Source: Dudresnaya verticillata
Taxonomy: Eukaryota
DNA: 64,000 bases
Reading direction: 5' to 3'
NCBI GenBank assembly: GCA_977862235.1
Contig: OZ374564.1
Span: forward strand, 2,232,001 to 2,296,000
The notes beneath the pieces are model-generated. The model did not search any database and was not told the DNA's origin. It saw only the letters and a list, made by a program, of their open reading frames with translations. Numbering within the stretch: the stretch's first letter is position 1; every line of letters starts with the position of its first letter. Positions 1 to 57,698 of this stretch are shown here, in pieces. Made by a program: the position numbers and the translations under genes.

Positions 1-1
1 C

Positions 2-31170: not shown

Positions 31171-31171
<1 letters not shown>

Positions 31172-31210
<39 letters not shown>

Positions 31211-31223
31211 GCCGCCGCCGCCG
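31172..31223 (+). repeat. Compound (GCT)n(GCC)n microsatellite just upstream of the glycosyltransferase ATG
   Basis: Seen directly. Confidence 0.9.
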
Positions 31224-31240
31224 CACCAGCACCAGCAGCC

Positions 31241-35109: not shown

Positions 35110-36874
35110 TATTTTGGCGATGGCTTACAGAAAGTGGGATTCGTTAAGCTCATGGGCGGAATACCTGTACTAATCGAGGAACTGTGCTCAACCGCGGCAA
35201 ATGTGCGGATGTGGCGCTGGAACGCCGTAGTGGAGAGACTCGTACGACTCCGACAACTACAGTAGCTAACCTAGAAGCTAACGAGCCGAGGTGATCTGCT
35301 AGCTAGTTATCCAAACTCTGGTCTTGATTGGAGCCGAGCGCTATCTTTAGGTCAATGTCGTAAAATCGGCTTGGGTTTGTCCACGGAGGTGGACGCGTCT
35401 TGGTGTTGGGATGATAACCGGCCCTACTCGACGGTATGTAGTCGGGAGGGGTCGGGACACACGCGGGGGCCGGTGCGTATAGTGCCGGGTAGATAGCGAC
35501 GGCGGCCGGTGAGCTGACGAAGTTCTGGAGAGGTGCAGTTGGTAACATTTGTGGTGAAGCGGCCGTTGTGAAGTGCCGACGACGGTTGAGCCGACTCGCG
35601 ACCGGCGCACCGGTGAGCTGGCGCCAAAATCCGAACGGGAGTGCAGCGACACAGTAGCACTGTACGCCTTGCTGGCGTCTGCGCGCACCACCAATAGGAG
35701 CCAAGTAGTTGATTTATTTGTAATTAAGTAATTGTAATGATGCTGTACAGTACGTAGTGTCAGCCGGCCAATGAGAATGCCGAGCATGTCCGCAACGGTG
35801 ACCGGGACCACTAGGGCCGGACCCACCTGGTGGCCCAGACCCATTGGGGTATGGCCCACCCGGACCGGACCGCGGGGCGTATCTCCCAGTATATTAATGG
35901 GTGGGCACCGCGAGTCCTACAGTAAACGGGCACGCAACCCTGGGCAAAGTGAATTACCCTAAGCCTTACCCTCATACGCCTTTACGGTTTCCCCTCGCCA
36001 GCCCCGTGCACGGATTCCTCTTACCTCCGTCCCGGTGTAGCTGCCCTGGCACTGTACCGTCCCCCTTGTCTGTTGCGTCCCTTTACTCCTTACAGGTGTT
36101 GCCGCTCGAGGTACTCCCTTCGGTCTACGAACTAAGCTCTACCACCCCGGTGCCGTGTGAGATCACTCCTTATTGGGATTGCCTGATCAGCTCTCCTTAC
36201 AGGTGTGCCTTTCACTTCACCACATCTTCACAAAATTCTTGGTGCCGGGAAGTAGGGAGCTTCCCGGTTCACGGCAACTTTATAGTCCTGTAGCGCTAGG
36301 CTTGACTGTGTAAAACTAAACGGACAGGGGTAAAAGCTAAACGGAGAGGGATAAATTAGAGGGCGTCACCCAGGAATGGGTCTTAACACTACCAAATAGA
36401 AGCTATTCCTACAGCGTGGAGTTGGCCTCGCTGTCCAATGTTTGTCTAAGCGACGGTAAAGTAAACTGCATGGGTGACCTTGCCCATATTCTATAGTGGA
36501 GGAGGATAGAGGTATCCGGTCCGTGGGGGCCAGACCCTAGTGGTCTGGACCCATGGTGGAATCGGCCCTGCTGGTCCCAATCTCCGACACGGACATGCGC
36601 AGCATTCTCATTGGCTGGCGCACTACTTGACGTACTGTACAGATACTCATTAAAAATAAAGAATAAACACTACAAATACTCCGATATGGTTGGTGTGCTT
36701 CACTGCTGTACAGCAATGCGTACCGGCGTACAGCAATGCGCACAACATCCGACACGGTTACACGTTGCCAGATCATCAGCGTGGCGTATTGCCACATCAC
36801 CCGTTACGGTTGGCTCGCCGTCGGTGGGCCGCATTCTCGCCACGGCTCACTTCACCACAGACTCCCCTCCTTAA

Positions 36875-39850
36875 ATGGCGCCACGTCCTCGGGCGCCCAC
36901 CGTAGCGGATCACTATCGCTGCCCCACCCACGAACACACAGACACCCGATACGGAAGTGTTCTCATCAACCCCTTCCCCTTTTTGCGCGCTTCTCCCACC
37001 ATGTCAGGGGAGAAGACCAAGCGCTCTCCGTCGCCCTTTCAACCGACACGGCGTTCCCGCGCTGCTTCCACTACGCGGGCGCAGGGCGCGCAAACCGTTA
37101 CGGATGCTTCGACGCAAGCGCCGGCTTCTTCCTCGGCGGCAGCGACGCGACCCGCGACGGGCGGTCGTACGAGCATTACCGTGACGGAACCTTCACCGGC
37201 TCCATCAGCGAGCCGAGGGTGGTCGGTCTATGATCCGAATCGGTTTGCTGCGAGCGCTGCCACAAGGCCCTTGCTACCAGGGAGTGCAGCGACTCACCGT
37301 GACGGAGAGGCGCCAACCAAGGAGCGCGATGATGCGTTCCGTCGTGGTGGCGAGGGGCTCAACTTGGCAGACCTACCGGCCATTCTGTTACGGACACCAT
37401 CGACACCGGTATCGACGCCGAGTCGTAGGATGGTTTCCAGTCCACATCCTTCCTCAAGTACACCGAGACGGATGCGTGGGCCCCCGCAAAGCAACCCACC
37501 TGCTCCGGGGCCTTGGTGGCCGGTAGTGCATACCCGTGACGGAGAGGGCCCTGCCCCGAGTGGTTATTGGCCGGGGCACCACTTTGACCATCGCGCGGGG
37601 CGCCCGGCTAGAACCGATGCGGAAAGGGCCAAGATTAAGCCCCCGATGACGGTGGACCTCTTCATTGAGAAGTATCCAACCGTCTTGGAAGCAAGAAGGT
37701 ACAAGGCCGTCATGGCACAACCCTTCAAGGCGAATCAACGCATTGGCGTTGTTCCGAATCGGAGAGAATTTGTGTGGCAAAGCCGATGGGTGCATGGCTA
37801 TTGTCAATCGAGGACCTCTACCGTTTCGGATTTGTTGTGGTATCGCTGCCATGGGGAGGTAGGATATACCGCAAAGGTGAGTCACCTGTTTGCCACAGGT
37901 TTCCGTCTCCGGGGTGCGCCGGTCGGAGTGCAATTCATTTGCTTCGACCGCCCCTATGACCAATCGGTATATTGGTTCCGCTATGCCGATGGGTGGAAGG
38001 ACGATGCCGCGACGGAACACCGTTTGAGAGCTCGTTCCCGTGACGGAATACAAGTTGGCTCGCCAATCCTGCATACGTGGAACACTAAGGAGTTCTTCTA
38101 TCTTCCGTATCGGGTGCGTCGTGTATTGTACCTTACAGCTCCGTCATGGTGGGCGCGTTATGAGGTGACCCGTTGGTTGTCGGTCCCCATGCCGTCGGTC
38201 GTAGCGTACTTCTCGGCGGACTTACTCACCGAACGGGAGTGTAATCACAAGCATCCGAACGGAGAACGTCCCCCGAATCAAGATCAGCTCGATGTACTGT
38301 GGCGCATCTTCCGATCGGAATGGGCCATGCTGGTGCTCTTCTCGTGGCTCCAGGTGGACTATTACGGAGTACGGTATAACACCAAGTTAGCTGACTGGCG
38401 ATGCTTCCCACGGGATGAGGATGGCCTGCCCGGAGGAGACTGTGGCCGTATTTTTCAACTTCCCGTAACGGTGATCGCCCTGATTCGCGAAGTCGGCGTA
38501 GCCGATTTAGTGACGGGGTCGGCATACCCTCTCCATCGGGTTGAGCGTCTTTTATCCGTACACGGAGAGCAAGATTGGCAACGCACTCCGGGCTTCTTGG
38601 GGTATAATTGGGACGAGGACCGTGTCCTATCGGTGCCCCCGCTGAGGCCCGGAGTGGGTGAGCCATATTTCCTTCATCGAGAAGATCCGCGTCCGGAATG
38701 GTTGGCCTTAGAGGTGCAGGCCCATCGGGACTATGCCTCTCGCCAAGCACCAAGGGATGCGTACCGTGACGGTTTGGATGGGGCTGAAGATTGGGGGAGC
38801 TGTCAGGAGGCAGCGGGGCGTACGCGTACAATCGACCCACGCGATTCCGTTACGATGAGGCAGCAAGAAGCTGACCCCTTCTTGGAAGAACAGGAGGAGG
38901 TCACGCCCGTTGCCTCAATGGTAGCGGGTAGCGAGAAGACACCCGCTCCAATTCTTCCGGTGGTCGCGACACCCACATCGCGCGATGTGGATCGTGAGAC
39001 TACTACTCCCGTATCGGATAAGGCCCCAACGCCCATGGGTGTGGCTGCGCCGACTATGGCGGTGCCCAAGTCTGCGGCACCATCCGAGAAGGGGTCTTCA
39101 AAGGAGCAGACCGTTTCGGAAGTGGCGCCGGATACTGTGCCGGCGGCACTGTCTCCTGCGACGCAAATGCCTGCCGCCGTGGAACCGCTCCCGCCAAGTG
39201 CTCCGCTGTTGGCGCCCACTCCCACACCAGCGGGGAATGCGGCGTCGATCACCGTATCGGAAGTGGCTGCAAAGCGCCCAAGTGTTGGGGCAACTGGAGA
39301 CAAGCCCTCGGTTCTCGCACCAAATCCTGAACCGTTACGGAAAAGCGATATTGCCTCGCCAGAGAAGGACACGGATCCACCGCTGCGGAAGGACGTACCT
39401 TTACCTGAGTCGGGACCGTCCGTATTGGTAGTTTCCTCAACGGAGCATTCACTTGAAGCCGGGGTTAGGGATCAGCCGTCGATCTCCCCGAAGGTAGAGT
39501 TGCAAGAAGATGAGGATCCCCCCGTTACGGTTCCGGCTCATTTAGCCGCTATGGAAAGTGGGTTGCAGGTGCTACGGGGCATTTGCCGTACGCAGCGCTT
39601 CCCATTGCCAGGATCCGTTCAGGAAGTGTTAACCTTAACGGAGGGGCTGATGGAACAGGTAATTCATCTCCGCGCGGTGGTCCGTCGTCAGCGTCGGCGC
39701 ATGGACAGTGCGGTTCGCGTCTTGGGAGACACTACGCAGCGCGTATTCCAATCGGATCCGAGTGGGGAACCCGGCTTACGAACGGGTCAGGGGAGCAACG
39801 AGGAGGATACAGTTGCCCCTGCTCCGAAACGGCGTCGACGTAACTCTTAG
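36875..39850 (+). CDS. Antisense accessory ORF of element C (991 aa), function unknown
   Basis: Uninterrupted 3-kb ORF between pol and the 3' LTR; central domain clearly homologous to the antisense ORF of B. Confidence 0.85.
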   Translation: MAPRPRAPTVADHYRCPTHEHTDTRYGSVLINPFPFLRASPTMSGEKTKRSPSPFQPTRRSRAASTTRAQGAQTVTDASTQAPASSSAAATRPATGGRTSITVTEPSPAPSASRGWSVYDPNRFAASAATRPLLPGSAATHRDGEAPTKERDDAFRRGGEGLNLADLPAILLRTPSTPVSTPSRRMVSSPHPSSSTPRRMRGPPQSNPPAPGPWWPVVHTRDGEGPAPSGYWPGHHFDHRAGRPARTDAERAKIKPPMTVDLFIEKYPTVLEARRYKAVMAQPFKANQRIGVVPNRREFVWQSRWVHGYCQSRTSTVSDLLWYRCHGEVGYTAKVSHLFATGFRLRGAPVGVQFICFDRPYDQSVYWFRYADGWKDDAATEHRLRARSRDGIQVGSPILHTWNTKEFFYLPYRVRRVLYLTAPSWWARYEVTRWLSVPMPSVVAYFSADLLTERECNHKHPNGERPPNQDQLDVLWRIFRSEWAMLVLFSWLQVDYYGVRYNTKLADWRCFPRDEDGLPGGDCGRIFQLPVTVIALIREVGVADLVTGSAYPLHRVERLLSVHGEQDWQRTPGFLGYNWDEDRVLSVPPLRPGVGEPYFLHREDPRPEWLALEVQAHRDYASRQAPRDAYRDGLDGAEDWGSCQEAAGRTRTIDPRDSVTMRQQEADPFLEEQEEVTPVASMVAGSEKTPAPILPVVATPTSRDVDRETTTPVSDKAPTPMGVAAPTMAVPKSAAPSEKGSSKEQTVSEVAPDTVPAALSPATQMPAAVEPLPPSAPLLAPTPTPAGNAASITVSEVAAKRPSVGATGDKPSVLAPNPEPLRKSDIASPEKDTDPPLRKDVPLPESGPSVLVVSSTEHSLEAGVRDQPSISPKVELQEDEDPPVTVPAHLAAMESGLQVLRGICRTQRFPLPGSVQEVLTLTEGLMEQVIHLRAVVRRQRRRMDSAVRVLGDTTQRVFQSDPSGEPGLRTGQGSNEEDTVAPAPKRRRRNS

Positions 39851-39950
39851 AGTTACAGCTCGACGATCTCCTTAACAGTTTCCATTATGCCTCGATCTTA
39901 GCTTGCGATAAACGTTGTGTGTTCTCACACCCCAGTATTCCAACTGTCCG

Positions 39951-42900
39951 TTACGGTGAGTGACGTGTTGGATTAGCACGTCGCCGTGGCTTACCCTTAG
40001 CGGATGTCTTTTTCTTTTGCTTCCAATATCGGTAGATGAAATTCTGTGGTAACTCCTCCGCGGGCTCAAAAGTGTCCTGATCCGGAGGGTAACCATACCA
40101 GCGGACTTTGTATGTCATCCCAGTAGGTTCGTCGCGGTGACCGACAATCTTGTCGATCACATATTCCGTATCGGCTTGCAGTGGTTCCATCGCGGGGGGC
40201 GTAGTACCTTCAGATGGAGGTACTACTGTAGTACCTTCTGGATGTGGCACTACTTCTCCGTAGACGGTTGATGGCGTGACAGGCGGCACTGTTAAGGGTA
40301 CCGGCTGAACCGCGACTCCGATCGGAACCTTAGTGATGCGATCGATACTTACGGGGATCAATACCCCTTCCTTGCGGATTGTAGCGACATGTTCCGTTGC
40401 GGATTACACGTCATAAGGCCCCGTGGCTCTCGGAAGGAGTTTCTTCATTTCCTGAGCCACTTCGCCCACATCGCCCGGTTTGCCTTCCAATCGGTCCCGC
40501 TCACGGCGCTCGGCCGGCCGCAAGTTATGGGGCGGCCGGTCGACATAGACTTGATCTCCGCTTCGGATTATGGGCCTAAAGCGCACCTTACGGTCAAACA
40601 GTGCCTTGGCTTTTTGCTGAGCCACTGTCTGCTTCGTGCGCGCTGTCTGGAGCGCGTACCGTAAACGGCGCATGGTGCTCCGCTTCTGTAGCACCGGGGT
40701 CATACGCCCTTCCGTAACGGTTTCTTGATGCTCGACAGGAGCCCCTCGTACAACAATATCCGATGGGTGGCGTGTCAGCACCAAATCAAATGGCGTTGTT
40801 TCCGTAATACGGTGTACCTGCATGTTGTACGCATATGTCAACGGTTGCAGGTACAAATCCCAATCGGAGTGATGATCCTCGACGTAATGGCGCAAACGTT
40901 GGGCGATTGTCTTATTAAATCGCTCAGCTTGCCCATTTGTCTGCGGATGATAGGCAGCGGTGAGCAGGTGCCTGACTCCGAGTAAGGAACACACCGCGTC
41001 GAAGAACTTAGCAGTAAACTGCGGTCCGTTATCGGTTAGGACAAATTGGGGTGCGCCGTAGGCGTACACCCAAAAGTCCAGAAAGGCGTTAGCCACCACA
41101 ACGGCTGTTGTTGTCCGTAACGGGATACAGCGCGTTAGCTTAGAGAACCGATCGGTTATTACCAGAACGTATACATAACCCCGTTTGGTCTTCGGAAGTG
41201 GCCCGAGAATGTCGATAGCGACAAACGCCAAAGGTCCGCTAGCGGGGAAAAGTTTCATAAACCTTTGATTCCGAAAGCGGGTTCCCTTTGTCTTCACGCA
41301 GGAGCGACATGTCCGAACGGATTCAAATACATCGTTGGCCATATGAGGCCAATAATAATCCTGTCGGAGTGTGTAATACATCTTAATTCCACCTGGGTGA
41401 CCCGACATCAGGGTATAGTGGGAGAAATATAATACCCGTCCACGGAGTTCGCTTGGCACCACCTTCTGTAGAGCGCCATCCAATTGGGACTTGCGTACCA
41501 AGAATCCGTTACGGTCATTGTCTAACTGTGATCCAGGGGAGCCTACCGTATCGGCTTTGAGACGACAGAAAGGGTCTCTGGCTTGCGCTTCGAGGAACTC
41601 CTCCCTGGCAATTGTCTCATCCTTAACTTCGGATTCTTGGATTACAGTAAACCGTGACGGTATTGCGTCAGGCTTGTCAGGGGAGGCGGATGCGCTCCCA
41701 CTGGAGTGCTCCACGGCGCATATTACGTTATTTTCCGTAGCGGTTTCTCGCGATGTGTCCCAATCGGTTAAATAGACGCCATGCTCATATAATCCGTTGA
41801 CGGTATTTTCGGCGATAAAGCAGGGTATCTCTTCATGCAAAGGTCTATCGTCACAGCCATCCGTTCGGAGTCGCGACATCCCATCGGCAAGTTGATGCTT
41901 AATTCCAGGACGGTATTGCACCTCAAATTCAAATTCCGATAGGCGGAACCTCCACCTGGCAAGGCGGCCAGATGAGTCTGCGAGGTTCAGGATCCACCGC
42001 AGGGCATCGTGATCCGTTCGGAGAATAAACTTGTCACCGTAAAGGTAGGGTCGGAGTGTTAACATGCTCCAGACCACGGCTAGGCATTCCTTTTCGGTTG
42101 TCGTATAATTTTTCTCCGCATCGGTGAGGCTTCGGCTCCAGTATCCAATAGGGAGGTGATCGCCATTCGGTTGCTCCTGCAGAAGGACACAGCCGACTTG
42201 ATGGTCACATGCGTCAGTGTCCAACGTATATTTATATCCGTGATGGGAGAGCCAATATAGGTGGAGAGATAAGGCGTCTCTTCAGTTCCTCGAAGGCTTC
42301 ATATTCCGTATCGGATAATATTCCAAACTCAAAGGGTGAACCCTTGCCGGTTTTCTTATTTAGCGGAGCTGAAATCCGAACGAAGTTGGGTACAAAGCGA
42401 CGATACACGTTGCACATTCCCAAGAAGGATCGCAATTCCGTTTGGTTTGTCGGCGGCTTCGCGACCTTGACGGATTGGATATTTCTATTATCCACTTCTA
42501 ATTTTCCGGGACGGATAACATGCCCCAGGTATTGTACAGACGCGTTGAAGAAGTCACACTTTGACAATTTCAACGTTACCCCAGCGGATCGTAAAAGCGT
42601 AAGGACTTCCTTCAGGTGGTGGAAATGTTCCGTAACGGTTTTTGAGTAGACAATTACATCGTCTAGGTAGACGAGGGCAAATTGCCATTTAACCGTAGAA
42701 AGGATTATATCCACTGCCCGTTAGAAGGTTGCCGGTGCATTTTTCAATCCGAATGGCATTCTCCGAAAACGGTATAAGCCAAAATGGCTAGTGAAGGTAG
42801 TTTTGTCCCTTTCCTCTTCCGGAATCTCGACTTGCCAATATCCGCTATTGCAATCCAGGGTGGTAAATACAGTAGCTTCCCCAAGGGAATCTATGATCTC

Positions 42901-44221
42901 ATCCATCCTGGGCAAGGGATATGAGTCCCTAACCATTACGGCATTGAGCCTTCTATAGTCAACACAGAACCGCATGGTGCCGTCCTTTTTTGGAACGAAA
43001 ACCACGGGGCTGGCCCACTCCGATGAGGCTGGTTCAATTACCTTAGCGGAAAGCATGCGATCGATTTCTGTCTTTTCGAGATCTCGCTGCTTATGTCCGG
43101 CACGGTATGGGGCTTGATATACTGGCTTAGCTCCAGGAGTTAACTCGATGCGGTGCTTGGCAGCTGTAATGTTGCCAAGATCGCCACTCCACATCGACTT
43201 ATATTCCTCGAGTAGGGTTAAAATCCGTTTGCGGAGCGATGCTTCTTCTGTGCCGATCTGGACTTGATCCTTCCAGTCGGTAGTATTTGTATTTTCCGTT
43301 ACGGGTTTACTTACTTCCTTGTCGTGAGGGGAGATGCTGCTGGCCTTTTCGGAGGTAGGGTTAGAATTAAATGATTGAATAATTCCTCCCCCCTCCTTAA
43401 ATGGAGGTATACCGTCAACGGTAAAAATAGCAGAGGGGGCAGCAGTAGCGAAGCCCACGACAGTAGATTTGGGCAACCGTACCGGCTTGTTAGAAACATT
43501 AGAGACCCAGATCCGAAACGGTTTGTCAGGTACAACATCCATAATACCATTAGCCATTAACGTAAGGTGCTTAAAAGTCGGCTTAGGATGATTTTGTAGA
43601 AAGCATAACCCACCCGTGGGGTATTAACCGTTACGGTGGTTTGAGTCATAGGGGGAATAAGGGTAGATTTTCCTAACGAATTTTCTGAGAAACCGTAGCG
43701 GTAGAAAGAGGTGAGGGCTGTAGGGTTGCAGTGGTTCCCGTCTTTGGAATTTTGGCTTGACCAACAAGGGATACCGGTGGGGAATGATGAAAAACAACTT
43801 TCCGTAACGGAGGGAGGATTGCCTTCACGTAGCGGTCGATGAAGGTAGTTCCCAAAATACAGGGAGCCGCCAAGTTCGCGACCACTAGAAAATGGACGCG
43901 AGCGCGGAGCTCTCCGACACGGACGAAAAGTTGGATCTGACCAAGAGGGCGTATAGCGCGATTAGACGCATCCCGTAATGGAGGACTGGCTGCTGGGCGT
44001 ATGAGTGGGAGACATTGGCGCGGAAGGCGCCTGGCACTAATGAGATTGGGCCCAGCGCCAGAGTCCAAGACGGAGATTAAAGGAAGCATCACGTTATCTG
44101 TCCGTCCCACGGTAATTTGCATCTTGTAATTTTGATGTTGCATAAAGAAGATAGTATCATTGGTCTGATAAGCTAATGGGAGTTCCGTAACGGTATCTCG
44201 CCGATCCCCTGGCGGGTCCAC
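39951..44221 (-). pseudogene. pol: pol of element C (PR-RT-RH-INT-chromodomain), disrupted
   Basis: LDSGA, LDCNSGYWQ, YLDD, DTDAC, TDNGPQF, YKVRWYGYPPDQDTFEP; several stops and frameshifts. Confidence 0.95.
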
Positions 44222-44265
44222 ACTCGCGAGAGGTGGAACGCCGTGAGGCGGGGATGGCGGTGCCC

Positions 44266-46746
44266 TTACGCATCCCCCCTTGAGTTTTCCGAATTCAAGG
44301 TTGCACCAGTCGGATCCGCCTCCATGGGCTCGCGCAATTCTGCGAGTTCCACTCCGTCATGGTCCTCCACCGATAGTATCGGGGCATTCCGTTGCGGAGG
44401 GGGCGTTTGCGGTGTGCCCCTATTCCCTTGCGGATTCAAACTGGTTCCTACTACGAACCTGCGACCTACAGGGTAGTGCTTCTGGAAGTTGCGCTCGCGC
44501 TCTTCCATAAGCCTAACCCGATCGGATTCATGTATCCAGGGACAAACAACGTGCTCTGGAGAAAGGCAGATGCGACAGTTACCACTTCCGTAAAGGCGTC
44601 GGACCCGAGGATCCGACTCATCCCGTAGCGGAGGTGCTGGTTGCTGCTGTTCTCGCCCATCGTGAGCATTATTTCCGTAACGGTGACTCGGCTGCTGTTG
44701 GGGGCCAGGAGCCGGGCGAGATCCACCATAGGGGGGACCTTGCGCGCGTGGCATCCTGGGCGGAGTAGGGTGGACGCTTTGCGGGGGTGAGTAGTACGGG
44801 GTAGAAAAGGTAACCCGCGTGCTCGTTCCCGTAGCGGCACCGTGGGCTCCCTCGACAGCTAAGACTTGAGCATCCGTAACGGAAGGATCTGCTTGCGGAT
44901 CATAGTGTACATCCGAGACGGAATCCAGCGATAACACCTTAGACGGGCGCGCTTTAGTGCGCCCATCAAAGACGTGAGCCGGAACGGTTTGGCGTCGAGC
45001 TGCCCGATGGGACTGACCCAGGCCAGTCGCATAGCGAGTGATGGCCTGATAATCCAACTGGGAATGCGTCGCTAGATAATTTCTCATCTGTTGACGAGTA
45101 CCCGGTAGGAGTCCTTCAACGAACAGTGACTTCAATGCCCGATCGGAAAATACTGTACCGCAACGGAGAGCCTTGGCCCAGAGCTGGTTCGAGAACTGCT
45201 CTTCCGTCAGGGCGGATGTTTGCCTGAAGTTGCTGACATACGTATAGGCTTCAGTAATCACTTCATCCGTAGCGTAGGTTCTCAATAAAAAGTTCACCAC
45301 CTCGGAATATGTGCGGAGCATCTCGGCCTGCTCCACATCAACCGCCATCGTACCTCCAGCAAGCCTAGCCTGTAGAAGGGCTTCGGCCTGTCCTTTAAGG
45401 AAAAACTGGAAGCACCAGACGGCAACCCCTTCGGCGATGCCGTTGATGTTACAGCCGTCACGGAACTTGGCGAGAAATCCCAAGACGGTATTCGAGTCCG
45501 TCCCATCGAATGTATGGGACGACATCTGGACGTCGAGTTTCTTCCGTATACGGCTCATGTTCTATGAGAACTTAGAGCCGTATGTCTTACTCCTCTTATC
45601 CAATCGGTAGGTGCGGTAGTCCAGCGCCTTGACAAACTTGTCATGTAGCGGCCGGATTACCTTCACCTTTCCGGATTTGGCACCGTGTTTTCTGGCCCGG
45701 TCCCTATTCTCTCTATCCGTTACGGAAGAACTCTCTGAGTCTGAATCCGTAGAGGTAGAGGATTCATGCCTTTTTTCGCGTTTCCGCGATCTTCTGTTTC
45801 TCCTCTTGCGGCAGCGGTGTTGGCTATCCTCTGAGCTGCTCTCATTGGATTCCATACCGGATTGGTGGCGTCGTCGCTGGGTGTGGTCGCCCATGTGCGA
45901 CCGACGGGGAGGGTCAGAGCGGGAGTGTCGGGCATCTCGTTTATGCCGACCTCGACCGGTCCTCCGACTCGGATGGGGTGAGCTGGACGCATCGCTGAGA
46001 TGGTCGCTGCCTCCACCTGATCGAACCGGAACGGTACAGCGCTCTTGCTGATAGCGCCCTGGCGTAGGCACATCTACGTGTCCAGGAGAATACCGTAACG
46101 GTGGCTGAGTGTGTGTTGGTCCCGTAGGGGCGTGTTAATGTTGAGAATCCGTTACGGGAGCCGGTGGCAGTGGCCCAGAGGGTACTGTGCCCGGCGGCAA
46201 TCCCATAACGGGGGGTTGTTGCGGCTGCTGCGTTCTTCCCTCGACCGGGAATCCATTCCGTAACGGTGGTTGCTCAGTAAAAGCTTCCATAGCGGGAGGC
46301 CTTGCCATGCCGGGAGCAATCTGGCTCTCGAGCTCGGCGGCCACCTTTTCCTGTAGGATCAAAGCTTGCACTATCCGAGGAAGGTGCTGCTCCAGATAGG
46401 AATTAACCAAAGACGGAACAGTTTCCGAGAGGGATATCTCCACCTCTTTTACCATTCCAGGTTGTACTTCCAATCGGAGATGCTCTAAAACCCTAGGAAG
46501 GATCTCCGACAGGACCCAGTGGACCCGATGGGATTCCGGCTTGGGTTGCGGATCTGCCTTCTTCGAGGCGTCTCATCCGACACGGGAACAGGGAGCTTTA
46601 CCAGCAGCACCCTTTAGGATGTCTTCTGGGTTCTCCACTCCGGAACGGATTTCACCTCCTTCACTGCGCAAACTGCGCGCAGCGGGGGTAGTGTCACCCG
46701 CTTTAGGTTCCGTAACGGGAGGGTCTGCGTGTTCTTCGTTCTGCAT
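44266..46746 (-). pseudogene. gag: gag of element C, disrupted
   Basis: Colinear with gag of B (FVKALDYRTYRL, WCFQFFL); internal stops at 46135 and 45562. Confidence 0.85.
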
Positions 46747-47716
46747 GATACCTTAACGGAACACAACGGTTGTTCTTGCTTGTCTATCCAATATTCCGTA
46801 ACGGGTTGTCGGTACAGCCGAATTCCTACCGTAGCGGATTTTGACGGCTGTTTCTTCCAACCGTAACGGTGTTCTAGGTCGGGAGACCAAAAGATGTGGT
46901 GTAGTGAAAACCCACGAACTCCGAGACGGACAGCTGGCCTGACTTTCCTTAACGGACGAGACCAACACTACCTCCACGGGGTGGTAGAGCAGTTCGCACC
47001 GAGACGGGAGAACAGCGAGCGGCTAACCGAGACGGATATTGGGAAGCAACAGACAAGGGGGTGGTACAAGTGCCGGGACGGACTCCGTAACGTGGTGGTG
47101 GTAGACCGCAACGGGCTCGGCGCGGGGAAAACCGTAAAGGATTGGGCTAATGTTGCTTACCCGTTTACCTTAGGAGCCGCTGCGGTGCCGCCCTGATATG
47201 CAAGTCAGGGTGGCACCGAGTGGTCCGGTCCATGGGGGCCAGACCCTAGTGGTCTGGACCCATGGTGGAATCGGCCCTGCTGGTCCCAATCTCCGACACG
47301 GACATGCGCAGCATTGTCATTGGCTGGCGCACTACTCTACGTACTGTACAGATACTCACTAAAAATAAAGAATAAACACTACAAATACTCCGATATGGTT
47401 GGTGCGCTTCACTGCTGTACAGCAATGCGTACCGGCGTACAGCAATGCGCACAACATCCGACACGGTTACACGTTGCCAGATCATCAGCGTGGCGTATTG
47501 CCACATCACCCGTTACGGTTGGCTCGCCGTCGGTGGGCCGCATGCGCGCCACGGCTCACTTCACCACAACCTAGAAGGCCGTCAAGGTAGAAGAATCTCC
47601 GTTGGACTCCGCTTCGGTAGGAGGTCAGCTTCGTGACAACTCCGTATTGGTGTAAAGGAAGGACAAGGCAAAACACTCGTTGACTCCGTTTTGGTAACCT
47701 ACGAATAGAAGAACAC

Positions 47717-50304
47717 ATGGACCCTACCGTATCGGATCAAGGTGAGGTGCCGTAAACCGTGAGATCACGCCGCGGTGACGATAACACCATCCCGGAGGTG
47801 CCCTCTACTGCGAGAACACGCCGCAGTGAGTCCACCGAACCGGAGGTAGCCTCAGCCACGAGAACACGCCGTGGCGATGCTGCCGACCTGAACCCCGGTA
47901 TGGAGAACCCCGAAGAACTCCTTAAAGGTGTAGCCAGTAAGCTCGCTAGATCCCTACCTGGTTCAGACACTTCCCGCAAGGGTGTATCCAAGCCAGGTGA
48001 CTCCAATCGTGTCCATTGGATACTTTCGGAGGTCATCCCACGGGTGTTGGAGCATCTCCGTATAGAGGTGCAACCCAACATGGTCAAGGAGGTTGAGACC
48101 ACGCTCGCCGACACCGTTCCGGTCATTGTTAGCTCCTACCTGGAGAAACACCTTCCGGAGTTGGTACAGACGCTCATCCGTCAGGAGCGTCAGGCGTCGG
48201 AGATCGAGAAGATGCTCATCCCCGGACAACCCCTACCGGAACCCAAGGAGCCGCCCTTTTCTGGACCTACACCGATACGGAATAACTTCCCGGTCAAGGG
48301 AGAAACGACGTATATGTCATAAATCCCCACTCAGGTGTTTCCGCCCGATCCGGTAAGGACAGCGGCAGCCCCTGGGTTACCTACCCAAACTCAATACACC
48401 GAATTGGAACCAACACACCAACCCCAACCGAATCGGAGTACGGTCCCTGGACCCGCAGAATTGCCTGCGGGGGAACGTATCACCGTGCCGGTGGCTTCGC
48501 GTAGAGGCAGTGAGCACTCCGATGGTGACTCCAAGAAAAACCAAGACCGGAGTGGTAGAGACAGTGCTGACAGAAAGGCCAAGGACTCCCACTCCGATAA
48601 GGAACGTGACCGTTCGCAACGGAGCAAATGCGCTTCGCGACGGGACAAAGAACACTCCGGTACGGAATCTGATGATAGCCAACACCGCAATAGGAAGAAG
48701 AATAAGCGCAAGTCCCGCCATAGGCGACGAAAAGGGCATGACTCCTCCCATTCCTCTGGCTCTGATACGAGCTCCTCCGATACGGATAGGGACGAGCGGC
48801 GTCGGGCCAGAAAACACGACGCCAAACACCGAGAAGTCGACAGGCCAATCCCAAAGGTGATCCGGCCCCTGAACGACAGGTTCGTGAAGGCGCTGGATTT
48901 CCGAACATACCGACTGGAGAAAAAGAGTTCATACTACAGCTCTAGCTTATCCAAGAATATGGGACGTATCCGCAAAAAGCTGGAGGTGCAAATGAAGTCC
49001 CACTCCTTTAACGGTACAGACCCCATCACGTTCCTTGGATTTCTCGCGAAATTCAAGGATTCGTGTAACATCAACTCCATTTCGGAAGGAACCGAACTGT
49101 GGTGTTTCCAGTTTTTCTTAAGTGGACAGGCTGAAGCTTTGCTTCAGGCCCGTCTCGCTGGTGGCACCATGGCGGTCGACGAGGAGCAAGCAGAGATGCT
49201 TCGCACCTATACCGAAGTGGTGAACTTTTTGCTAAGGACTTATGCTACCGATGAGGTGATTACCGAAGGGTATTCGGACGTAAAGTCGTTTCGACAAACG
49301 TCGGCCTTAACGGAAGAGCAATTCTCCAACCAACTTTGGACTAAGGCACTCCGATGCGGTACAGTATTCTCCGACAGGTCCCTCAAGTCGCTGTTTGTGG
49401 AAGGACTCCTACCGGGGACGTGTCAGCAGATGCGCCATTATCTGGCAACACACCCCCACATGGATTACCAAGCCATCACCCGCTACGCTAAAGGGCTTGG
49501 AGAATCCCATCGGGCAACCAGACGCCAAACCTCAGCGTTGCACGTCTTGGACGGAAAACCTAAGAGTCAGTCACGACGCTCTGGCATTCTGTCGATTCGT
49601 TCTCCATCGGATTATACCTACTCGGAGTATCCCGCTGAATCGGAGGAGCACGTGCTCGCTCTGGAAGGTGGCGCGGGTCGAAGCGCCGGCACCTCGTCGG
49701 GGGTTACGTTTACTACAGCGTACTCTTCCCCAACGAGTAGTGTCTACCCTACTCCGCCTCGGACTCCCAACCTTCGCCCACCAGCGCCACGGATGCCACC
49801 ACCCCGGCAACCCCGATACGGACCGGCTGATAGCCGCTACGGCCCCGCCACACACCGTCAGGGAACCACCGGGCAGCATCCTAGCCATATTGGACACCCC
49901 CACGGCAACATGCCTCCCCGTCAAGGGCAGGGCGAACACCGTATTGGAAAACAATCCCCTGCCGCAGGGCATACGGATCACATCTCACCGGATGTCAGAC
50001 GCCTCTATGGAAGCGGCTACTATCGCTTGTGCCTCTCCCCGGACCATGTAATTTGTCCGTATCTGAGCGACACCGAAAGGGGTCCCCTGATGGAAGAGCG
50101 CGAGCGCAACTTTCAAGCGATCCTCCTCAAGCGGCAGGCCTTCGCCAACTCCAATACGGGAAATCTTCCGCCGGGCAACTACCAGCAACGCCCCGCACGG
50201 GTGCTGACTGTCGATGGTGGTGCGGTTGGCGAGCCCCCGCTGATATGGTGGAGGAGGCACTTATGGCGCACCCCGACTCGGAAAACGTCGCAGGAGACGT
50301 GTAA
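47717..50304 (+). pseudogene. gag: gag of element B, disrupted
   Basis: Homologous to gag of C; stops at 47753 and 48320, frameshift near 50240. Confidence 0.85.
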
Positions 50305-50330
50305 GGGCGTCCCCGTCTCCTAAAAGCGAC

Positions 50331-53300
50331 GTGGTACGCCCACCCGTACGGGCTTTGCCGGACTGTCAGTCCGCCACCATTACGGAGTACCCCCTTGATT
50401 TTGTTCCAGAAATCCCCCTTGAATTTCCACCACCCGGTGATTCTGTCTGTGTTCTACAACGGCAGAATTATAAAATCCAGATTACCGTGGGAAGGAGTAA
50501 TGACCTCATGTTGCCTATCAGCACCGTATTGGATTCTGGTGCTGGGCCAAATCTCATTAACGCCCGACGGTTTCCACGCCACTGGTAATCGTTGCCTCGC
50601 CCCGCTGCCAGTCCACCTTTACGGGATGCGTCCAATAGGTCGATACGCCCGCTTGTTGTCATTCAACTTTTTGTCCGTATCGGAGAATTGCGTACTCGAG
50701 TCCACTTCCTGGTGGTCGCGAACCTCGCTGCTCCGTGTATTCTGGGAACCAGTTTTATTGATCGCCATGTCAAGGCGATCCTCCCACCGGCACGGAAAGT
50801 TGTTTTTCATCACCACTCCCCGGTTTCGCTAATGGGACAAACCAGACACTCCAAAACGGTGGCTGCTTCTACCCTTCAGGGCCCCCTGTGTCATCCGCTT
50901 CGGTATCGCAAAAGCTCCGACTAGCAAAATCCCTTATTATCCCCCCTATGACCCAATCCCTTGCATTGGTCACCACTCCTACCGGTGGTTTGTGTTTTCT
51001 TCAAAACCATCCCAAACCCATCCAGAAGCACCTCACCCTTATGGCTAATGGAGTTATGGATATAATCCCTAACAAACCCTCTAAGGTGTGGCTGACTAAT
51101 TTTTCCCCCAAACCGGTGCGGTTACCCAAGTCTACCGTCCTGGGCCTTGCTACTGCTGCTCCCTCTGCCATACTCACCGTTAACGGTGTACCTCCATTTA
51201 AGGAGGGGGGAGGACATATTAATTCCTTTCCTGCTCCTCCTAATGAAAGCAGCAAGGCTACACCCCAAGATGGATTCAAAGGAAACACCGTATCGGAATC
51301 AACTACAACTCCTAACACCGATTGGAAAGATAACATCCATATTGGTGCCAAGGATGAAAAACTCCGCGCTAAGGTGGTTACACTCCTCGAGGAGTTCAGC
51401 ACTATGTGGAACGGCGAGTTAGGAAATATAACTGCCGCGAAACACCGTATTGAATTAATGCCTGGTGCCAAACCGGTGTATCAAGCACCACATCGGGCAT
51501 GACATAAACAGCGCGAGCTGTAGAAGGCAGAAGTGGATCGTATGTTGTCCGCTAAGGTGATCGAGCCATCCGCTTCGGAGTGGGCCAGCCCTGTGGTCTT
51601 TGTTCCTAAAAAGGACGGCTCCATGCGGTTTTGTGTCGATTACAGGCGTCTTAACGCTGTCACCGTTCGGGGTTCATACCCTTTACCCCGGATGTATGAA
51701 TGTATCGACTCCCTTGGAGAAGCTACAGTATTCACCACTCTGGATTGTAATAGTGGCTACTGGCAAGTAGAGATCCCCGAGGAGGAGCGTGACAAAACTA
51801 CCTTCACCAGTCATTATGGATTATACCGCTTCCGGAGAATGCCTTTTGGGCTCAAGAAGGCACCGGCTACTTTCCAACGGGCGGTTGACATCATCCTATC
51901 TACGGTGAAATGGCAATTTGCCTTAGTCTACCTGGATGATGTGATTGTATATTCTAACATCGTCACGGAGTATTTCGAACACCTTAAGGACGTCCTCACG
52001 CTACTCCGTTCCGCAGGTGTAACGCTGAAATTATCAAAGTGTGCCTTCTTTGACACTCCCGTACAGCATCTAGGCCACATAGTGCGCCCGGGCCAACTGG
52101 AAGTGGAACGGAAGAATATTCTCGCCGTTAAGGAGGCTAAGCCACCTACAAACCAAACGGAGTTGCGCTCTTTTCTAGGGTTATGTAACTTCTATCGACG
52201 CTTCGTTCCTAATTTCGCACGTATTGCTCCGCCACTCAATAAGAAAACCGGCAAGGGTCTGGTATTCGAGTTTGGAACTCTCACCGAAACGGAGTTTAAC
52301 GCCTTTGAGGAGCTAAAGAGACACTTAATCTCCCCTCCAATATTGGCTTTACCCCGTCACGGTTTCAATAATACGTTGGATACCGACGCTTGTGATTACC
52401 AAGTTGGGTGTGTCCTTCTCCAGGAGCAACCTAGTGGAGATAATCTACCAGTGGGTTACTGGAGCCGAAGTCTAACCGATGCGGAGAAGAATTACACAAC
52501 CACTGAAAAGGAGTGCCTTGCTGTAGTTTGGAGTATGCTAACGCTACGCCCCTACCTTTACGGTGAAAAGTTTATACTCCGTACGGATCACGACGCATTA
52601 CGCTGTATATTGAGTCTAGCCGATGCGTCTGGACGCTTAGCAAGATGGCGCCTACGCCTATCGGAATTTGAGTTCGAAGTACAATAACGCCCTGGTATCA
52701 AGCACCAACTCGCAGACGGTATGCCGAGACTCCGAACAGGTGGTGTTGACAAAGCTGATTTGGATGAGGAAGTGCCTTGCTTCGTTATGGAATCGACTCC
52801 TAATGGTGTAGTGCAACATGGTGTGCGACTAACCAATTGGAAACAGACCCAGCAGCCTGATGCCGCAAGCAGCCTTGTCCTAGGCGTTGAAAGTGGAGAC
52901 ACCGAAACGGAAACTACGCCTGAAAAGGATACAGTACCACCCACTCCACTCGGGCAAACAGTCATCCAACAAGAGGATATGCGCAATGAGACCCTTACCC
53001 GTGAGGAGTTCATAGCCGCGCAAGCAACAGATACTTTCTGCAAGCTTAAAGCCGAAACGGTGGGATCCCCTGGATCACAATTTGACTACGACCGACATGG
53101 GTTTCTTGTGCGCAAGTCTGCCCTCGACGGCGCACTCCAAAAGGTGGTACCGCAACAGATGCGCGGCAGGGTCCTGTATCTTGCCCACTACACCTTAATG
53201 TCGGGACACCCTGGTGGAATTAAGATGTACTACACCTTACGGAGAGACTACTATTGGCCACATATGGCTAACGATGTATTCGAGACCGTTCGGAGTTGCC

Positions 53301-54679
53301 GCTCATGTGTCAAAACCAAGGGCACGCGGTTTAAGCATCAGAAGTTCATGAAGTTATTTCCCGCGAGTGGCCGACTGGAGTTTGGCGCTACGGACATATT
53401 GGGCCCGCTGTCCAAAACCAAACGTGGATATGTCTTTGTACTGGTCATCACCGATCGGTTTTCTAAGCTAACACGGTGCATTCCGTTACGGACGATTACA
53501 GCCGTCGTGGTGGCGAACGCATTTTTAGACCATTGGGTGTACGCGTATGGCGCACCTAAATTTGTACTCACCGACAATGGAAGACAGTTCACGGCGAAGT
53601 TCTTCGACGCTCTCTGTACCCTACTCGGAGTGCGACATTTGCTGACCGCCGCCTATCACCCGCAAACCAACGGGCAGGCCGAGCGGTTTAACAAAACCAT
53701 AGCGCAGCGCCTCCGACACTACGTAGAGGATCACCACACCGATTGGGATTTATATCTACAGCCGTTAACCTACTCCTACAATATGCAGGTACACCGGATC
53801 ACGGATACTACTCCTTTCGAATTGGTGTTAACTCGACACCCATCGGATATTATTGTGCGTGGCACCCCTGTGGAGTTGGAAGAAACCGTTACGGAGGGGC
53901 GTATGACGCCCGTACTCCAAAAGTGGGGAACCATGCGGCGTTTGCGTTATGCCCTACAGAAGGCGCAGACCAAACAGACTACAGCCCAGTTGAAGTCCAA
54001 GGCCCTATTCGACCGTAAGGTGCGCTTCCGACCGGTGGTTCGCGGTGGCGATCAAGTCTACTTGTATCGCCCGCCGCGCAATCTACGACCCACCGAACGG
54101 AAGGAACGCGACCGATTGGGTCAAGGCCCTGACCACATCGGTGAATTTGCCGAGCAAATGAAGAAGCTCCTCCCAAGATCGACGGGCCCCTATGAGGTGC
54201 ACACCGCAACGGATACTGTAGTCACTATCAAGAAGGATGGCGTCCTGATTCCCATCAGCATAGATCGCATCACTAAGGTACCAATTGGAATTCCCGTGCA
54301 ACCAGCGCCGCTATTGGCTCCGCCGGTTACGCAACACACCGACATGGACGGTACAGTATTCCAGCAGGCGGGAGGCACCACAGTAGTACCCCAAACACCA
54401 GGTGGTATTACTGTAACGCCCCAAACGCCAGGCGGTATTTCTGCCCCCGTGCCGGAAACAATTGATGCCGACACGGAGTATGTCATCGAGCAGATCGTGG
54501 GACACCGCGAAGAACCCACGGGCATGACCTACAAGGTGCGTTGGTACGGCTACCCACCAGACCAGGACACGTATGAACCCGCTGAGCAGTTGCCGCAAAA
54601 CTTTATACACCGCTATTGGAATAGAAAGCGCACGGCAGCCGCTGCAGCTCGACTTCGCAGAGCTCCCACGCGTCGATAG
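50331..54679 (+). pseudogene. pol: pol of element B (PR-RT-RH-INT-chromodomain), disrupted
   Basis: LDSGA, YLDD, DTDAC, TDNGRQF, YKVRWYGYPPDQDTYEP; stops at 50586, 51500 and 52685. Confidence 0.95.
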
Positions 54680-54687
54680 CCAGTCGC

Positions 54688-56437
54688 TAATCACCCACAC
54701 AGCAGGGGTTTGGCAAAATCGGGCATGACCCGTGGACTCCTTGTTCACAGAGCCCTTGCCCAAGAGGTTTTACTCCATATTGGTGACTTGGTGTTGGTAG
54801 AAAATGGGCATGACCTCCGGACTCCGGAACCACAGAACCCTTGCCCAAGGGGCTCTACTCCAACTTGGTGTATAAGGGTAACCACCGGCCCTGGTAGCTT
54901 GAATATGCGCCCTCACTCGCCACCTTCCGGATCCGTTCTGCTCCGCGGGTACGCCCTCCAGTCGGTCATCTTGGTATTGGCTCTTACACCCCTGTAGGTG
55001 ACCTGTAACCAGGAGAAGAGGGCTAACATGGTCCATTCCGCTTGCAGTATCCGACCCAACACCGTCATCAGCGGATGGTCGATTGACTTCTCTCCATCTG
55101 GGTGTGCAGCTTGCCAGTCGCGATGCTGAATGAACCGGTTGGAGAAGTACGCCACCACCGTCGGCGTTGGCACTGACAACCAACGGGTGACTTCATACTC
55201 AGCCCACCAATCCGGAGCGGTGCAGTACAAGCGACGGTGTGCCCCCGGCGGAACCTGGAAGAATTCGTTGGTGTTCCAAGTGTGGAGTATCGCTCTTCCG
55301 AGACGGCGTCCATCTCTACTCCGCAACCGGAGTCGATGATATTTCGCTGCGTCGTCGGCCCACCGTTGCGGATTATCAAACCAGTGAACCCCTTGGTCAT
55401 ACGGCTTCTCGTAGCACAGGAACTCGACACCAACCGGATGCTCTCGCAGTCGATGGGCCATGGCCAACAATCGGCACACCTTATCGGGATAGCCTTCTTC
55501 TTCCTGACACCTCAGCCACACGATGTCACACCCGGTTGGAGTTCGCACTCTGCAGTTTGAGTGAATCCACCTGGCTCTCCACATCTCCTCACGCCGATTC
55601 GGGAACCGCTTGTTGTTGATTAACCCAGCGGCGTCTGTAACAGCACTATAGAGACGCCCCTCGAGGGTACCACCATAGTTGGAAACGAACACCGATACGG
55701 GCATGGGGAGACGCACCATATCGGGTTCCTCCTCGGTACGCTGACGCCGCCAGGTGCGGTGATCATACTCCCGGCCCGGCCAAGTTCCCTCGTCGGTGTA
55801 CCCCATTGAGTCCACGCGCCCGTGGTAGCTCCCCGATGTCCCCGGCGCGTATGGCAACGAACCCGACGGTCCGCCGTAGACACCCAATCGGAGTGGGGGT
55901 GAGGTTACTCCACCTCTAACCTGACCAACCTGGAGACCTTGCGCGTACGCCTCATATCGCCCATGCGGAGTGGCGCGACGATATCTCCCAAGCTCCATCT
56001 CGGCGTTGCCCTTTGGAGGACCGGGTCGTTGTGCCCCCGGCCCAACCTGTCGATCCGGAAGCGGAGTAGGCGCCTTTCGAGCCTCGCCGTCATCGCGCCG
56101 TCGCGGCACCCTCGGGCTACCCGCACGTGCTGGCAGCGTCGGCGTGGCACCCGCTGCCGCCGCAACTCCCGCTATGGTGTCAGCGAGCCCGCCGCCTCCT
56201 CTCTTCTGCCTCCGGCGCCGGAGCCGCTCCCACCGACGATGCACGCCGTGTCGGTTGGAAGGGGCTCCGTGCCCGGTCGGTGTTCCCGCCCGCCATTGCT
56301 GGCGGTACACCGGTTTGGACCTGCCCGTTGGTCGACCTGCCTGAAGTGGAGTGTACCGATGAGGCTCTCTCCGTTGTTGGGTACACCTGAGTGGAGTTGT
56401 AGAAGACGTGCTGGAGCGCACGAGGACGTGTCGCCAT
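54688..56437 (-). pseudogene. Antisense accessory ORF of element B, disrupted
   Basis: MATRPRA...SPFQPTRR N-terminus (56437-56180) and Trp-rich domain match C; after the TGA at 54913 the frame reads GRIFKLP...VGV, matching GRIFQLP...VGV in C. Confidence 0.85.
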
Positions 56438-57698
56438 TTAAGGAGGGGGGTCTGTGGTGAAGCGGCCGTTGTGGAGTGCCGACGACGGTTGAGCCGACTC
56501 GCGACCGGCGCACCGGTGAGCTGGCGCCAAAATCCGAACGGGAGTGCAGCGACACAGTAGCACTGTACGCCTTGCTGGAGTCTGCGCGCACCACCAATAG
56601 GAGCCAAGTAGTTGATTTATTTGTAATTAAGTAATTGTAATGATGCTGTACAGTACGTAGTGTCAGCCGGCCAATGAGAATGCCGAGCATGTCCGCAACG
56701 GTGACCGGGACCAGTAGGGCCGGACCCACCTGGTGGCCCAGACCCATTGGGGTCTGGCCCACACGGACCGGACCGCGGGGCGTATCTCCCAGTATATTAA
56801 TGGGTGGCCACCGCGAGTCCTACAGTAAACAGGCACGCAGCCCTGGGCAAAGTGACTTACCCTAAGCCTTACCCTCATACTCCTTTACGGTTTCCCCTCG
56901 CCAGCCCCGTGCACGGATTCCTCTTACCTCCGTCCCGGTGTAGCTGCCCTGGCACTGTACCGTCCCCCTTGTCTGTTGCGTCCCTTTACTCCTTACAGGT
57001 GTTGCCGCTCGAGGTGCTCCCTTCGGTCTACGAACTAAGCTCTACCACCCCGGTGCCGTGTGAGATCACTCCTTATTGGGATTGCCTGATCAGCTCTCCT
57101 TACAGGTGTGCCTTTCACTTCACCACATCTTCACAAAATTCTTGGTGCCGGGAAGTAGGGAGCTTCCCGGTTCACGGCAACTTTATAGTCCTGTAGCGCT
57201 AGGCTTGACTGTGTAAAACTAAACGGAGAGGGGTAAAAGCTAAACGGAGAGGGATAAATTAGAGGGCGCCACCCAGGAATGGGTCTAAACACTACCAAAT
57301 AGAAGCTATTCCTACAGCGTGGAGTTGGCCTCGCTGTCCAATGTTTGTCTAAGCGACGGTAAAGTAAACTCCATGGGTGACCTTGCCCATATTCTATAGT
57401 GGAGGAGGATAGAGGTATCAATAATAACTCTGCTGTCTTTCGACTCCTCCACTGTATGAATATCAGGCCGACGGACGGCCTGATTTTGCTGTCCGTAGCA
57501 GCCCTTAGAAGTCAATATGACTTTATCCGTAACAGTCCTGCTCCGTCGAGCAGTCACTACTGTGAAAGTACGACACTCCCAAAACTTTTTCGCTTGACAA
57601 ACTCACATGGAACGTTCTACCCATTGTTCGATAGGATGGCTGAATCTGGCATTTTCCAGAATGGAGAACAGAGCTTCGCATGGGGTCTTCTTTGCTAA

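What the first reader, a model, noticed from the sequence alone, without database searches (positions are those of the whole stretch)
36875..39850. Large antisense accessory gene with an unassigned conserved domain in chromodomain Gypsy elements
A 991-aa ORF runs opposite to gag-pol, with its ATG 16 bp from the 3' LTR edge, so it is probably driven by an antisense LTR promoter. Layout: disordered N-terminus, a ~330-aa Trp/Tyr/Arg-rich globular domain, Pro/Ala linker, coiled-coil-like end, and basic NLS-like APKRRRRNS. The domain is conserved with B (PNRRE, RWVH/RWIH, PVGVxFxC, PYDQ, WxDDAA, HRLRxRSRDG, ILHTWNTxEFF, TAPxWWAxYEVTRWLSVP, EWxMLxLFSWLQV), which indicates purifying selection. No signal peptide or obvious TM anchor, so it is not env-like. 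It is still open while gag-pol of C has at least six lesions. Antisense ORFs are known in plant Tat/Retand elements, but I do not recognise this domain.
Basis: partly seen in the sequence, partly recalled or inferred. Interest (0 to 1): 0.88.

Follow-up and report, generated by a model that had tools for sequence, protein, structure and literature searches.

The report
Retrotransposon gene with element-wide DNA tags
Two sister jumping genes, likely from a red seaweed, carry a backwards extra gene of no known family and have a short palindromic DNA word written through their whole length, so the extra protein may bind and manage its own element, which is untested.

Summary
The 991-aa antisense ORF is real. 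Its ~295-aa Trp/Arg-rich domain is 51% identical to that of sister element B and under purifying selection in this frame (pN/pS 0.46, synonymous sites saturated). Nearest named pol relatives are red algal (Chondrus, Agarophyton). Completed searches found no homolog, and the domain model was unusable, so the fold is unknown.

It occurs 81 times in element C and 41 times in B, in LTRs, gag, pol and the antisense gene, in all codon phases. It is spacer-specific, beats codon shuffles, is evenly spaced, and turns over between B and C. Related Gypsy elements with no such ORF lack it in coding sequence.

Best reading (0.45): the protein is a nuclear, probably dimeric DNA-binder for its own element's motif, like VANC of VANDAL transposons. 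Binding and expression are unshown, and gene and motif co-occur in only one lineage. That the ORF is intact while gag-pol is broken is not significant (P=0.058), and B's copy is broken.

The parts
36875..39850 (+). Antisense accessory ORF of element C, 991 aa
37637..38518 (+). Conserved Trp/Arg-rich basic domain, residues 255-548 (weaker similarity from 202); 12 of 13 Trp, 21 of 30 Arg, 3 of 6 Cys and 4 of 7 His kept in B; pI 9.3
39536..39751 (+). C-terminal helices 888-907 and 915-959 (45-residue helix, pLDDT 83-96 over most of it), coiled-coil-like; absent from B's truncated copy
39824..39841 (+). PKRRRR, predicted monopartite nuclear localisation signal
   Evidence: sequence; function inferred
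36584..47518 (.). 81 dispersed copies of palindrome CCG-N3-CGG (consensus W-CCGTNACGG-W) across element C; 25 of them in the antisense ORF
36515..36859 (-). 3' LTR of C, 345-bp remnant, 97.7% identical to the 5' LTR; the likely site of an antisense promoter
36860..36872 (-). Polypurine tract, directly abutting the antisense ATG
   Evidence: sequence
39951..44356 (-). pol of C (PR, RT, RNase H, integrase, chromodomain with Y/W/Y aromatic residues); 2 stops, 3 frameshifts
44266..46746 (-). gag of C with 3 internal stops
46897..47568 (-). 5' LTR of C, 672 bp, TG..CA, 9 motif copies
35550..36224 (+). 5' LTR of element B; C is nested in B's leader
47569..54679 (+). Leader, gag and pol of element B (chromodomain Gypsy, sister of C); 41 motif copies counted over 47569-57127
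54838..56437 (-). Antisense gene of B: same start position and N-terminal motifs, one frameshift, one stop, C-terminal half missing
56453..57127 (+). 3' LTR of B

Best explanation
The ORF is a selected accessory gene of a likely red-algal chromodomain Ty3/Gypsy lineage, and its protein likely enters the nucleus and, probably as a dimer, would bind the palindrome CCG-N3-CGG that is written throughout its own element, which may keep the element active in repressive chromatin. Shown: coding selection on the domain, the motif and its properties, and co-occurrence of gene and motif in B and C with absence of both from three related elements. Inferred: transcription from an antisense promoter in the 3' LTR, nuclear import, dimerisation through the C-terminal helix, DNA binding by the conserved basic domain, and the purpose. 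Anti-silencing is the most likely purpose given binding (about 0.6); transcription control or pre-integration complex handling are the alternatives.
For: Selection: 344 aligned codons, differences by codon position 139/106/227, pN/pS 0.46 (95% CI 0.40-0.53), pS 0.79; the other five frames have stops and ratios of 0.62-1.67. It survives masking all CC-N5-GG codons (208 codons, 55% identity, 79/53/138). Motif: 81 copies at spacer 3 against 1-16 at the 15 other spacers tried in C, and 41 against 2-11 in B. It exceeds 1000 synonymous-codon shuffles in 10 of 10 C/B coding pieces (P<=0.002; one piece is a subset of another) and 0 of 5 control ORFs. In an unbiased scan of gapped 6-mers, it or an overlapping word tops C gag-pol (z 15.5), C antisense (z 10-11) and B (z 8.7-9.4); L002 and L003 are at null level. 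Only 13 of 36 aligned C sites are shared with B, so density is kept while positions change. Spacing in C is more even than random (CV 0.75, P=0.004). There is no flank covariation and no RNA-strand excess of G-U variants, which fits double-stranded DNA recognition. The domain is basic (net +9) with a C-terminal helix and basic tail. Precedent: VANC binds element-specific 8-9-nt motifs (PMC5735166, passages) and is predicted to dimerise by a coiled coil (PMC13547354, passages).
Against: No binding, expression or fold evidence, and no known DNA-binding domain. B and C are sisters (support 99) and the motif-free elements A, L002 and L003 form another clade, so gene-motif co-occurrence is one evolutionary contrast; the nearest Chondrus relatives could not be examined as DNA. 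A+D show a weak word excess of their own (z 5.7 against null maximum 4.2), and L003 has a non-coding GGCGCC palindrome excess (30 against 6) without a visible antisense ORF. The middle base of the motif is mildly strand-skewed in C (51 of 81 pyrimidine on the sense strand, P=0.026). Even spacing is not significant in B (P=0.067) and no period was found. The core contains AACGG, a Myb-type site (recalled), so a host factor could be the binder. VANC sites lie in non-coding tandem repeats, unlike these.
Confidence: 0.45

Rival explanations
1. The motif is bound by a host transcription or chromatin factor, and the antisense protein is an unrelated nuclear regulator, like the antisense genes of Grande or Retand.
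For: Gene and motif co-occur in only one lineage. The core holds a Myb-like AACGG (recalled). Plant antisense ORFs are nuclear with unknown roles (PMC7264820, main text).
Against: Host-gene regions and elements A, D and E of the same genome are not enriched. Many sites lack AAC yet keep the exact CCG-N3-CGG symmetry, and the preferred centre differs between C (TAA/TTA) and B (mixed), as expected if a binder evolves with the element.
Confidence: 0.27
2. The motif serves a core element protein (Gag or integrase) on RNA or cDNA, for packaging or pre-integration complex assembly, and the antisense protein is incidental to it.
For: Sites cover the whole element evenly; mild strand skew of the middle base.
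Against: No stem extension (24 of 81 complementary first flanks against 28.7 expected). G-U-compatible variants are 14 on the RNA strand against 28 on the other in C. Related elements with homologous integrases lack the motif.
Confidence: 0.1
3. The domain is a captured, diverged enzyme or host or transposon module (for example a relative of the red-algal Plavaka accessory gene PAG1, or a nucleic-acid-modifying fold) that the completed searches could not see.
For: Red-algal transposons exchange accessory genes, including methylase, SET and ParB-dioxygenase genes (bioRxiv 10.1101/2025.02.11.637652, section 8). Conserved His, Cys and Asp residues could bind metal. The most sensitive protein search could not be run.
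Against: No hit in Pfam, NCBIfam, PHROGs or PDB sequences, in two searches of the 5.8-billion-protein set, or in the ESM Atlas. This rival can also coexist with motif binding.
Confidence: 0.14
4. The ORF or the motif is a by-product: open by chance, conserved for a non-coding reason, or produced by mutation bias.
For: Only two copies were available, and one is broken.
Against: Codon-position pattern and frame-specific pN/pS; P about 2e-15 for the open frame; strict spacer specificity; no general CpG excess in B or C (o/e 0.98-1.07).
Confidence: 0.04

Closest known systems
VANC anti-silencing proteins of Arabidopsis VANDAL (Mutator-like) transposons (PMC5735166, passages; PMC13547354, passages)
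   Same: Element-encoded accessory protein plus a short element-specific motif present in many copies and varying between related families; coiled-coil oligomerisation predicted.
   Different: Here a retrotransposon; the gene is antisense; the motif is palindromic and dispersed through coding sequence rather than in non-coding tandem repeats; no sequence similarity detected; binding and demethylation are not shown.
Antisense additional ORFs between pol and 3' LTR: Retand TRP28 (PF04195), maize Grande gene23, RIRE2, PvRetro13, Botrytis Boty brtn (PMC11963269, abstract and passages; PMC7264820, main text; brtn seen only as mentions and a citation)
   Same: Same position and orientation, conserved across families, nuclear or DNA-binding role proposed, function unknown.
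   Different: No TRP28 or other Pfam domain; chromodomain-bearing, likely red-algal lineage; ATG abuts the polypurine tract; the passages read report no element-wide motif for those families.
Plavaka accessory genes PAG1-3 of Bostrychia and Chondrus DNA transposons (bioRxiv 10.1101/2025.02.11.637652, section 8)
   Same: Red-algal transposon accessory genes; PAG3 is proposed to bind inverted repeats of its own element.
   Different: DNA transposon; ParB/dioxygenase and methylase/SET domains, none detected here; repeats form tandem arrays beside the gene. PAG1 homology could not be tested.

Membership tests
Ty3/Gypsy with chromodomain | LTRs with TG..CA ends, polypurine tract, order PR-RT-RH-INT | tested here: met
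Ty3/Gypsy with chromodomain | Chromodomain at the integrase C-terminus | tested here: met
   PF00385, E about 1e-11 in B and C; Y/W/Y aromatic residues present (cage positions recalled)
Ty3/Gypsy with chromodomain | Placement in a named chromovirus clade by RT phylogeny with reference elements | not tested
   The tree had no named reference clades; it was a quick integrase tree of 43 of 48 rows
Antisense additional ORF between pol and 3' LTR | Antisense, between pol and 3' LTR, conserved between families under selection | tested here: met
Antisense additional ORF between pol and 3' LTR | Antisense transcript from its own or an LTR promoter | not testable with these tools
   No RNA run was listed
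Retand TRP28 antisense genes | TRP28 domain (PF04195) | tested here: not met
   No Pfam family for the C protein or domain
env-like ORF | Sense orientation and a transmembrane segment | tested here: not met
   Antisense; best 19-residue hydropathy 1.58
VANC-type anti-silencing system | Element-specific short motif in many copies | tested here: met
VANC-type anti-silencing system | Motifs in non-coding tandem repeats | tested here: not met
   Dispersed, in coding sequence, all three codon phases
VANC-type anti-silencing system | Homology to VANC / MAIN-like domain | tested here: inconclusive
   No Pfam hit; domain model too poor for fold comparison
VANC-type anti-silencing system | Protein binds the motif and removes silencing marks | not testable with these tools
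   Needs experiment
Captured host domain | Detectable cellular homolog | tested here: inconclusive

The most novel reading that the evidence does not exclude
An LTR retrotransposon that encodes its own sequence-specific DNA-binding protein of a new fold, and has written that protein's palindromic site across its entire length including gag, pol and the gene itself. This would be a self-recognition (anti-silencing) system evolved independently of VANC, with protein and site drifting together between sister families.
Probability: 0.35. Interest if true: 0.9.

Novelty: new variant of a known kind. Interest (0 to 1): 0.73.

Why it matters
The function of antisense accessory genes of Ty3/Gypsy elements is an open question: both papers read on them (PMC7264820, PMC11963269) say it is unknown. 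Here a candidate target sequence can be read from the element itself, so one binding assay tests the idea. [quoted passage not shown]

Tried and rejected
Homolog searches with no hit: 5.8-billion-protein set twice (lengths 175-1735 aa covered between them); metagenome contigs with the domain and with the integrase; viral contigs; ESM Atlas twice; Pfam, NCBIfam, PHROGs; PDB sequences (best E 1.2); phage records; 48 fetched loci and 120 pol proteins; 0 of 4 MAG genomes behind those loci; no third copy in the window.

The HMMER search of 1.84 billion representatives met a full queue on all 10 tries and never ran. AlphaFold2 on the two-sequence domain alignment gave pLDDT 31, so the empty Foldseek results carry no weight; the VIA-align search was busy. 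No RNA holder was listed. No whole genome is held. No Rfam match in 35000-58000 and no tRNA.

Rejected: env-like role; RNA-hairpin reading of the motif; nucleosome-length or 10-bp periodicity; general CpG enrichment as the cause; intactness of the ORF as proof of ongoing selection.

Literature searches listed no paper on antisense genes or dispersed motifs in red-algal Gypsy elements; one search failed. Repbase and subscription journals were not covered, and the bioRxiv supplements, which may hold PAG1 sequences, were not seen.

Full report
OBSERVATION. The ORF at 36875-39850 (+) is 991 codons, open from ATG to stop. The other five frames carry 25-32 stops, and an open run this long has probability about 2e-15 from base composition. 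It lies between pol and the 3' LTR of a minus-strand Ty3/Gypsy element C: 5' LTR 46897-47568 (672 bp, TG..CA), gag from 46746, pol with PR, RT, RNase H, integrase and chromodomain, polypurine tract, and a 3' LTR cut down to 345 bp (36515-36859, 97.7% identical to the 5' LTR). C sits inside the leader of a plus-strand relative B (LTRs 35550-36224 and 56453-57127). Both antisense genes start 16 nt from the LTR edge and share N-terminal motifs (MAxRPRA, M..SPFQPTRR). Any promoter upstream of that ATG must therefore lie in or beyond the LTR; this is geometry, not a shown transcript.

HOST. The nearest named pol relatives are Chondrus crispus and Agarophyton chilense proteins, so the host is likely a florideophyte red alga. 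No genome is held.

SELECTION ON THE PROTEIN. Over 344 aligned codons (C residues 202-548) identity is 51%, differences fall 139/106/227 on codon positions 1/2/3, pN 0.36, pS 0.79 (saturated), pN/pS 0.46 (CI 0.40-0.53). RH-integrase gives 0.20, RT 0.22 and gag 0.34. The same nucleotides read in other frames have stops and ratios of 0.62-1.67. Twelve of 13 Trp and 21 of 30 Arg are kept, and the domain is basic in both elements. C gag-pol has 5 stops and 3 frameshifts, 3.4 lesions are expected in the ORF, and P(none)=0.058. B's copy has a frameshift, a stop and a lost C-terminal half. Selection acted on the active lineage; nothing shows that this copy still functions.

IDENTITY OF THE DOMAIN. 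No homolog was found in any search that completed. The most sensitive search never ran because its queue was full. AlphaFold2 with two sequences gave pLDDT 31, so the fold searches mean nothing. The C-terminal part models as helices 888-907 and 915-959, the long one mostly at pLDDT 83-96, followed by PKRRRR. The best 19-residue hydropathy is 1.58 and the N-terminus is not hydrophobic, so with the antisense orientation it is not env-like.

THE MOTIF. The palindrome CCG-N3-CGG occurs 81 times in C (11.1 kb) and 41 times in B over 47569-57127, against 1 each in A and D. The core CCGTAACGG with its reverse complement occurs 23 times in C (36860-47568) against 0.2 expected. Fifteen other spacers give 1-16 in C and 2-11 in B. 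It is in LTRs, leader, gag, pol and the antisense ORF, in all three codon phases. It exceeds synonymous-codon shuffles in 10 of 10 B/C coding pieces (for example 25 against 4.2 in the ORF, 8 against 1.1 in RH-integrase) and 0 of 5 control ORFs. The wider consensus is W-CC(G)-N3-(C)GG-W (106 WCC-N5-GGW in C).

An unbiased scan of all gapped 6-mers against codon shuffles ranks the motif or overlapping words first in C and B. L002 and L003 are at the level of a held-out shuffle, A+D slightly above (5.7 against 4.2), and host ORFs show only GCA-repeat words (z 7.8). Sites turn over: 13 of 36 aligned C sites are shared with B, 1 of 8 in the antisense gene. Codons under lineage-specific sites differ in amino acid more often (67 of 122 against 547 of 1716), but this is partly built into the definition and is absent in the antisense gene. 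Spacing in C is more even than random (mean 137 bp, CV 0.75, P=0.004), not significant in B (P=0.067), with no periodicity. Flanks do not covary and G-U variants are not favoured on the RNA strand, against an RNA hairpin. A mild strand skew of the middle base in C (P=0.026) is unexplained. CpG is not generally raised in B or C.

LINK BETWEEN GENE AND MOTIF. A, L002 and L003 are related chromodomain Gypsy elements with no antisense frame over 157 codons in the 1.2-2.0 kb read downstream of pol, and no coding-region motif. L002 and L003 are eukaryote-type contigs inside bacterial MAGs and end at contig edges; D's 3' end is outside the window. A quick integrase tree (43 of 48 rows kept; five short rows dropped) makes B and C sisters (support 99) and puts A, L002 and L003 in another clade (97). 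The link is therefore one contrast. L003 also has a non-coding GGCGCC palindrome excess without a visible gene, which tells against a strict link.

MECHANISM. A spacer-strict palindrome, kept at high density through coding sequence while positions change, confined to two sister elements and shifting its centre between them, is what a dimeric sequence-specific binder that travels with the element would produce. The antisense protein is the one extra product these elements have; it is basic, selected, and ends in a coiled-coil-like helix and a basic tail. I put binding at 0.45. Given binding, anti-silencing is the likeliest purpose, because the integrase chromodomain is expected to steer insertion to marked chromatin (established for chromoviruses; recalled) and C is nested in another element. 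Rivals: host factor binds the motif (0.27), Gag or integrase uses it (0.10), captured enzyme (0.14, compatible with binding), by-product (0.04).

COMPARISON. By position it belongs with the antisense additional ORFs of Retand, Grande, RIRE2 and Boty (PMC7264820, main text read; PMC11963269, abstract and passages) but lacks TRP28. In logic it resembles VANC/VANDAL (PMC5735166, passages; PMC13547354, passages), but VANC sites are non-coding tandem repeats in a DNA transposon, so it is not filed as a VANC system. Red-algal Plavaka transposons carry accessory genes, one proposed to bind its own inverted repeats (bioRxiv 10.1101/2025.02.11.637652, passages and section 8; supplements not seen). PMC2774666, PMC8365987 and PMC6431247 were seen as passages only; the last notes enlarged multi-ORF En/Spm elements in Chondrus, and none describes this gene. 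Nine literature searches listed no description of this gene or motif. Two earlier unchecked AI notes describe a similar gene-plus-dispersed-palindrome layout in Podospora Gypsy elements with different genes; I found them after the motif, and they are a lead, not support.

VERDICT. Observation confirmed; interpretation partly supported. A real, unassigned accessory gene with a candidate target motif readable from the element. New variant of a known kind; interest 0.73.

Noticed in passing
window 35550-36516 and 56453-57419: Both LTRs of B are followed by the same ~292-bp leader, and both copies stop matching at the same base. A 3' LTR followed by leader suggests a tandem-array remnant or an extended LTR; the junction also removed 327 bp of C's 3' LTR.
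   Followed up: partly
window 46897-47568: If the LTR has an antisense promoter, C's 5' LTR would fire into B's leader and gag in B's sense direction.
   Followed up: no
window 36736-37233 (+): A 165-aa ATG-started frame beginning in the LTR overlaps the start of the antisense ORF; it could act as an upstream ORF if transcription starts above 36736.
   Followed up: no
window LTR pairs (C, B, A/D, E): LTR-LTR differences in B and C show no transition excess (C 4 of 8, B 5 of 15), which hints at little methylation-driven deamination; the numbers are small.
   Followed up: partly
window 1-3378 and 58424-64000: A second chromodomain Gypsy family (A/D, LTRs 96% alike) with high CpG (o/e 1.6) and a weak ACGAAG word excess; A has a duplicated polypurine tract before its 3' LTR.
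   Followed up: partly
L003 5900-7951: Repeated non-coding palindrome built on GGCGCC downstream of pol in a related Gypsy element.
   Followed up: partly
L002, L003: Contigs in bacterial MAGs (Planctomycetota, Moorena) encode Gypsy pol related to the red-algal elements, so they are likely host contamination.
   Followed up: no
window 11781-13658, 24486-26363, 27929-29923: Three paralogs of a ~615-aa protein with a signal-peptide-like start and no Pfam family; two lie in a 3.7-kb duplication at 98.5% identity.
   Followed up: no
window 8211-9173 and 15576-16256: Avidin-family gene (PF01382) and a second copy that ends at the LTR edge of element E (16240-22070).
   Followed up: no
window 30941-32890: GC-rich glycosyltransferase 61 gene (PF04577) with a poly-Ala tract in its upstream frame.
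   Followed up: no
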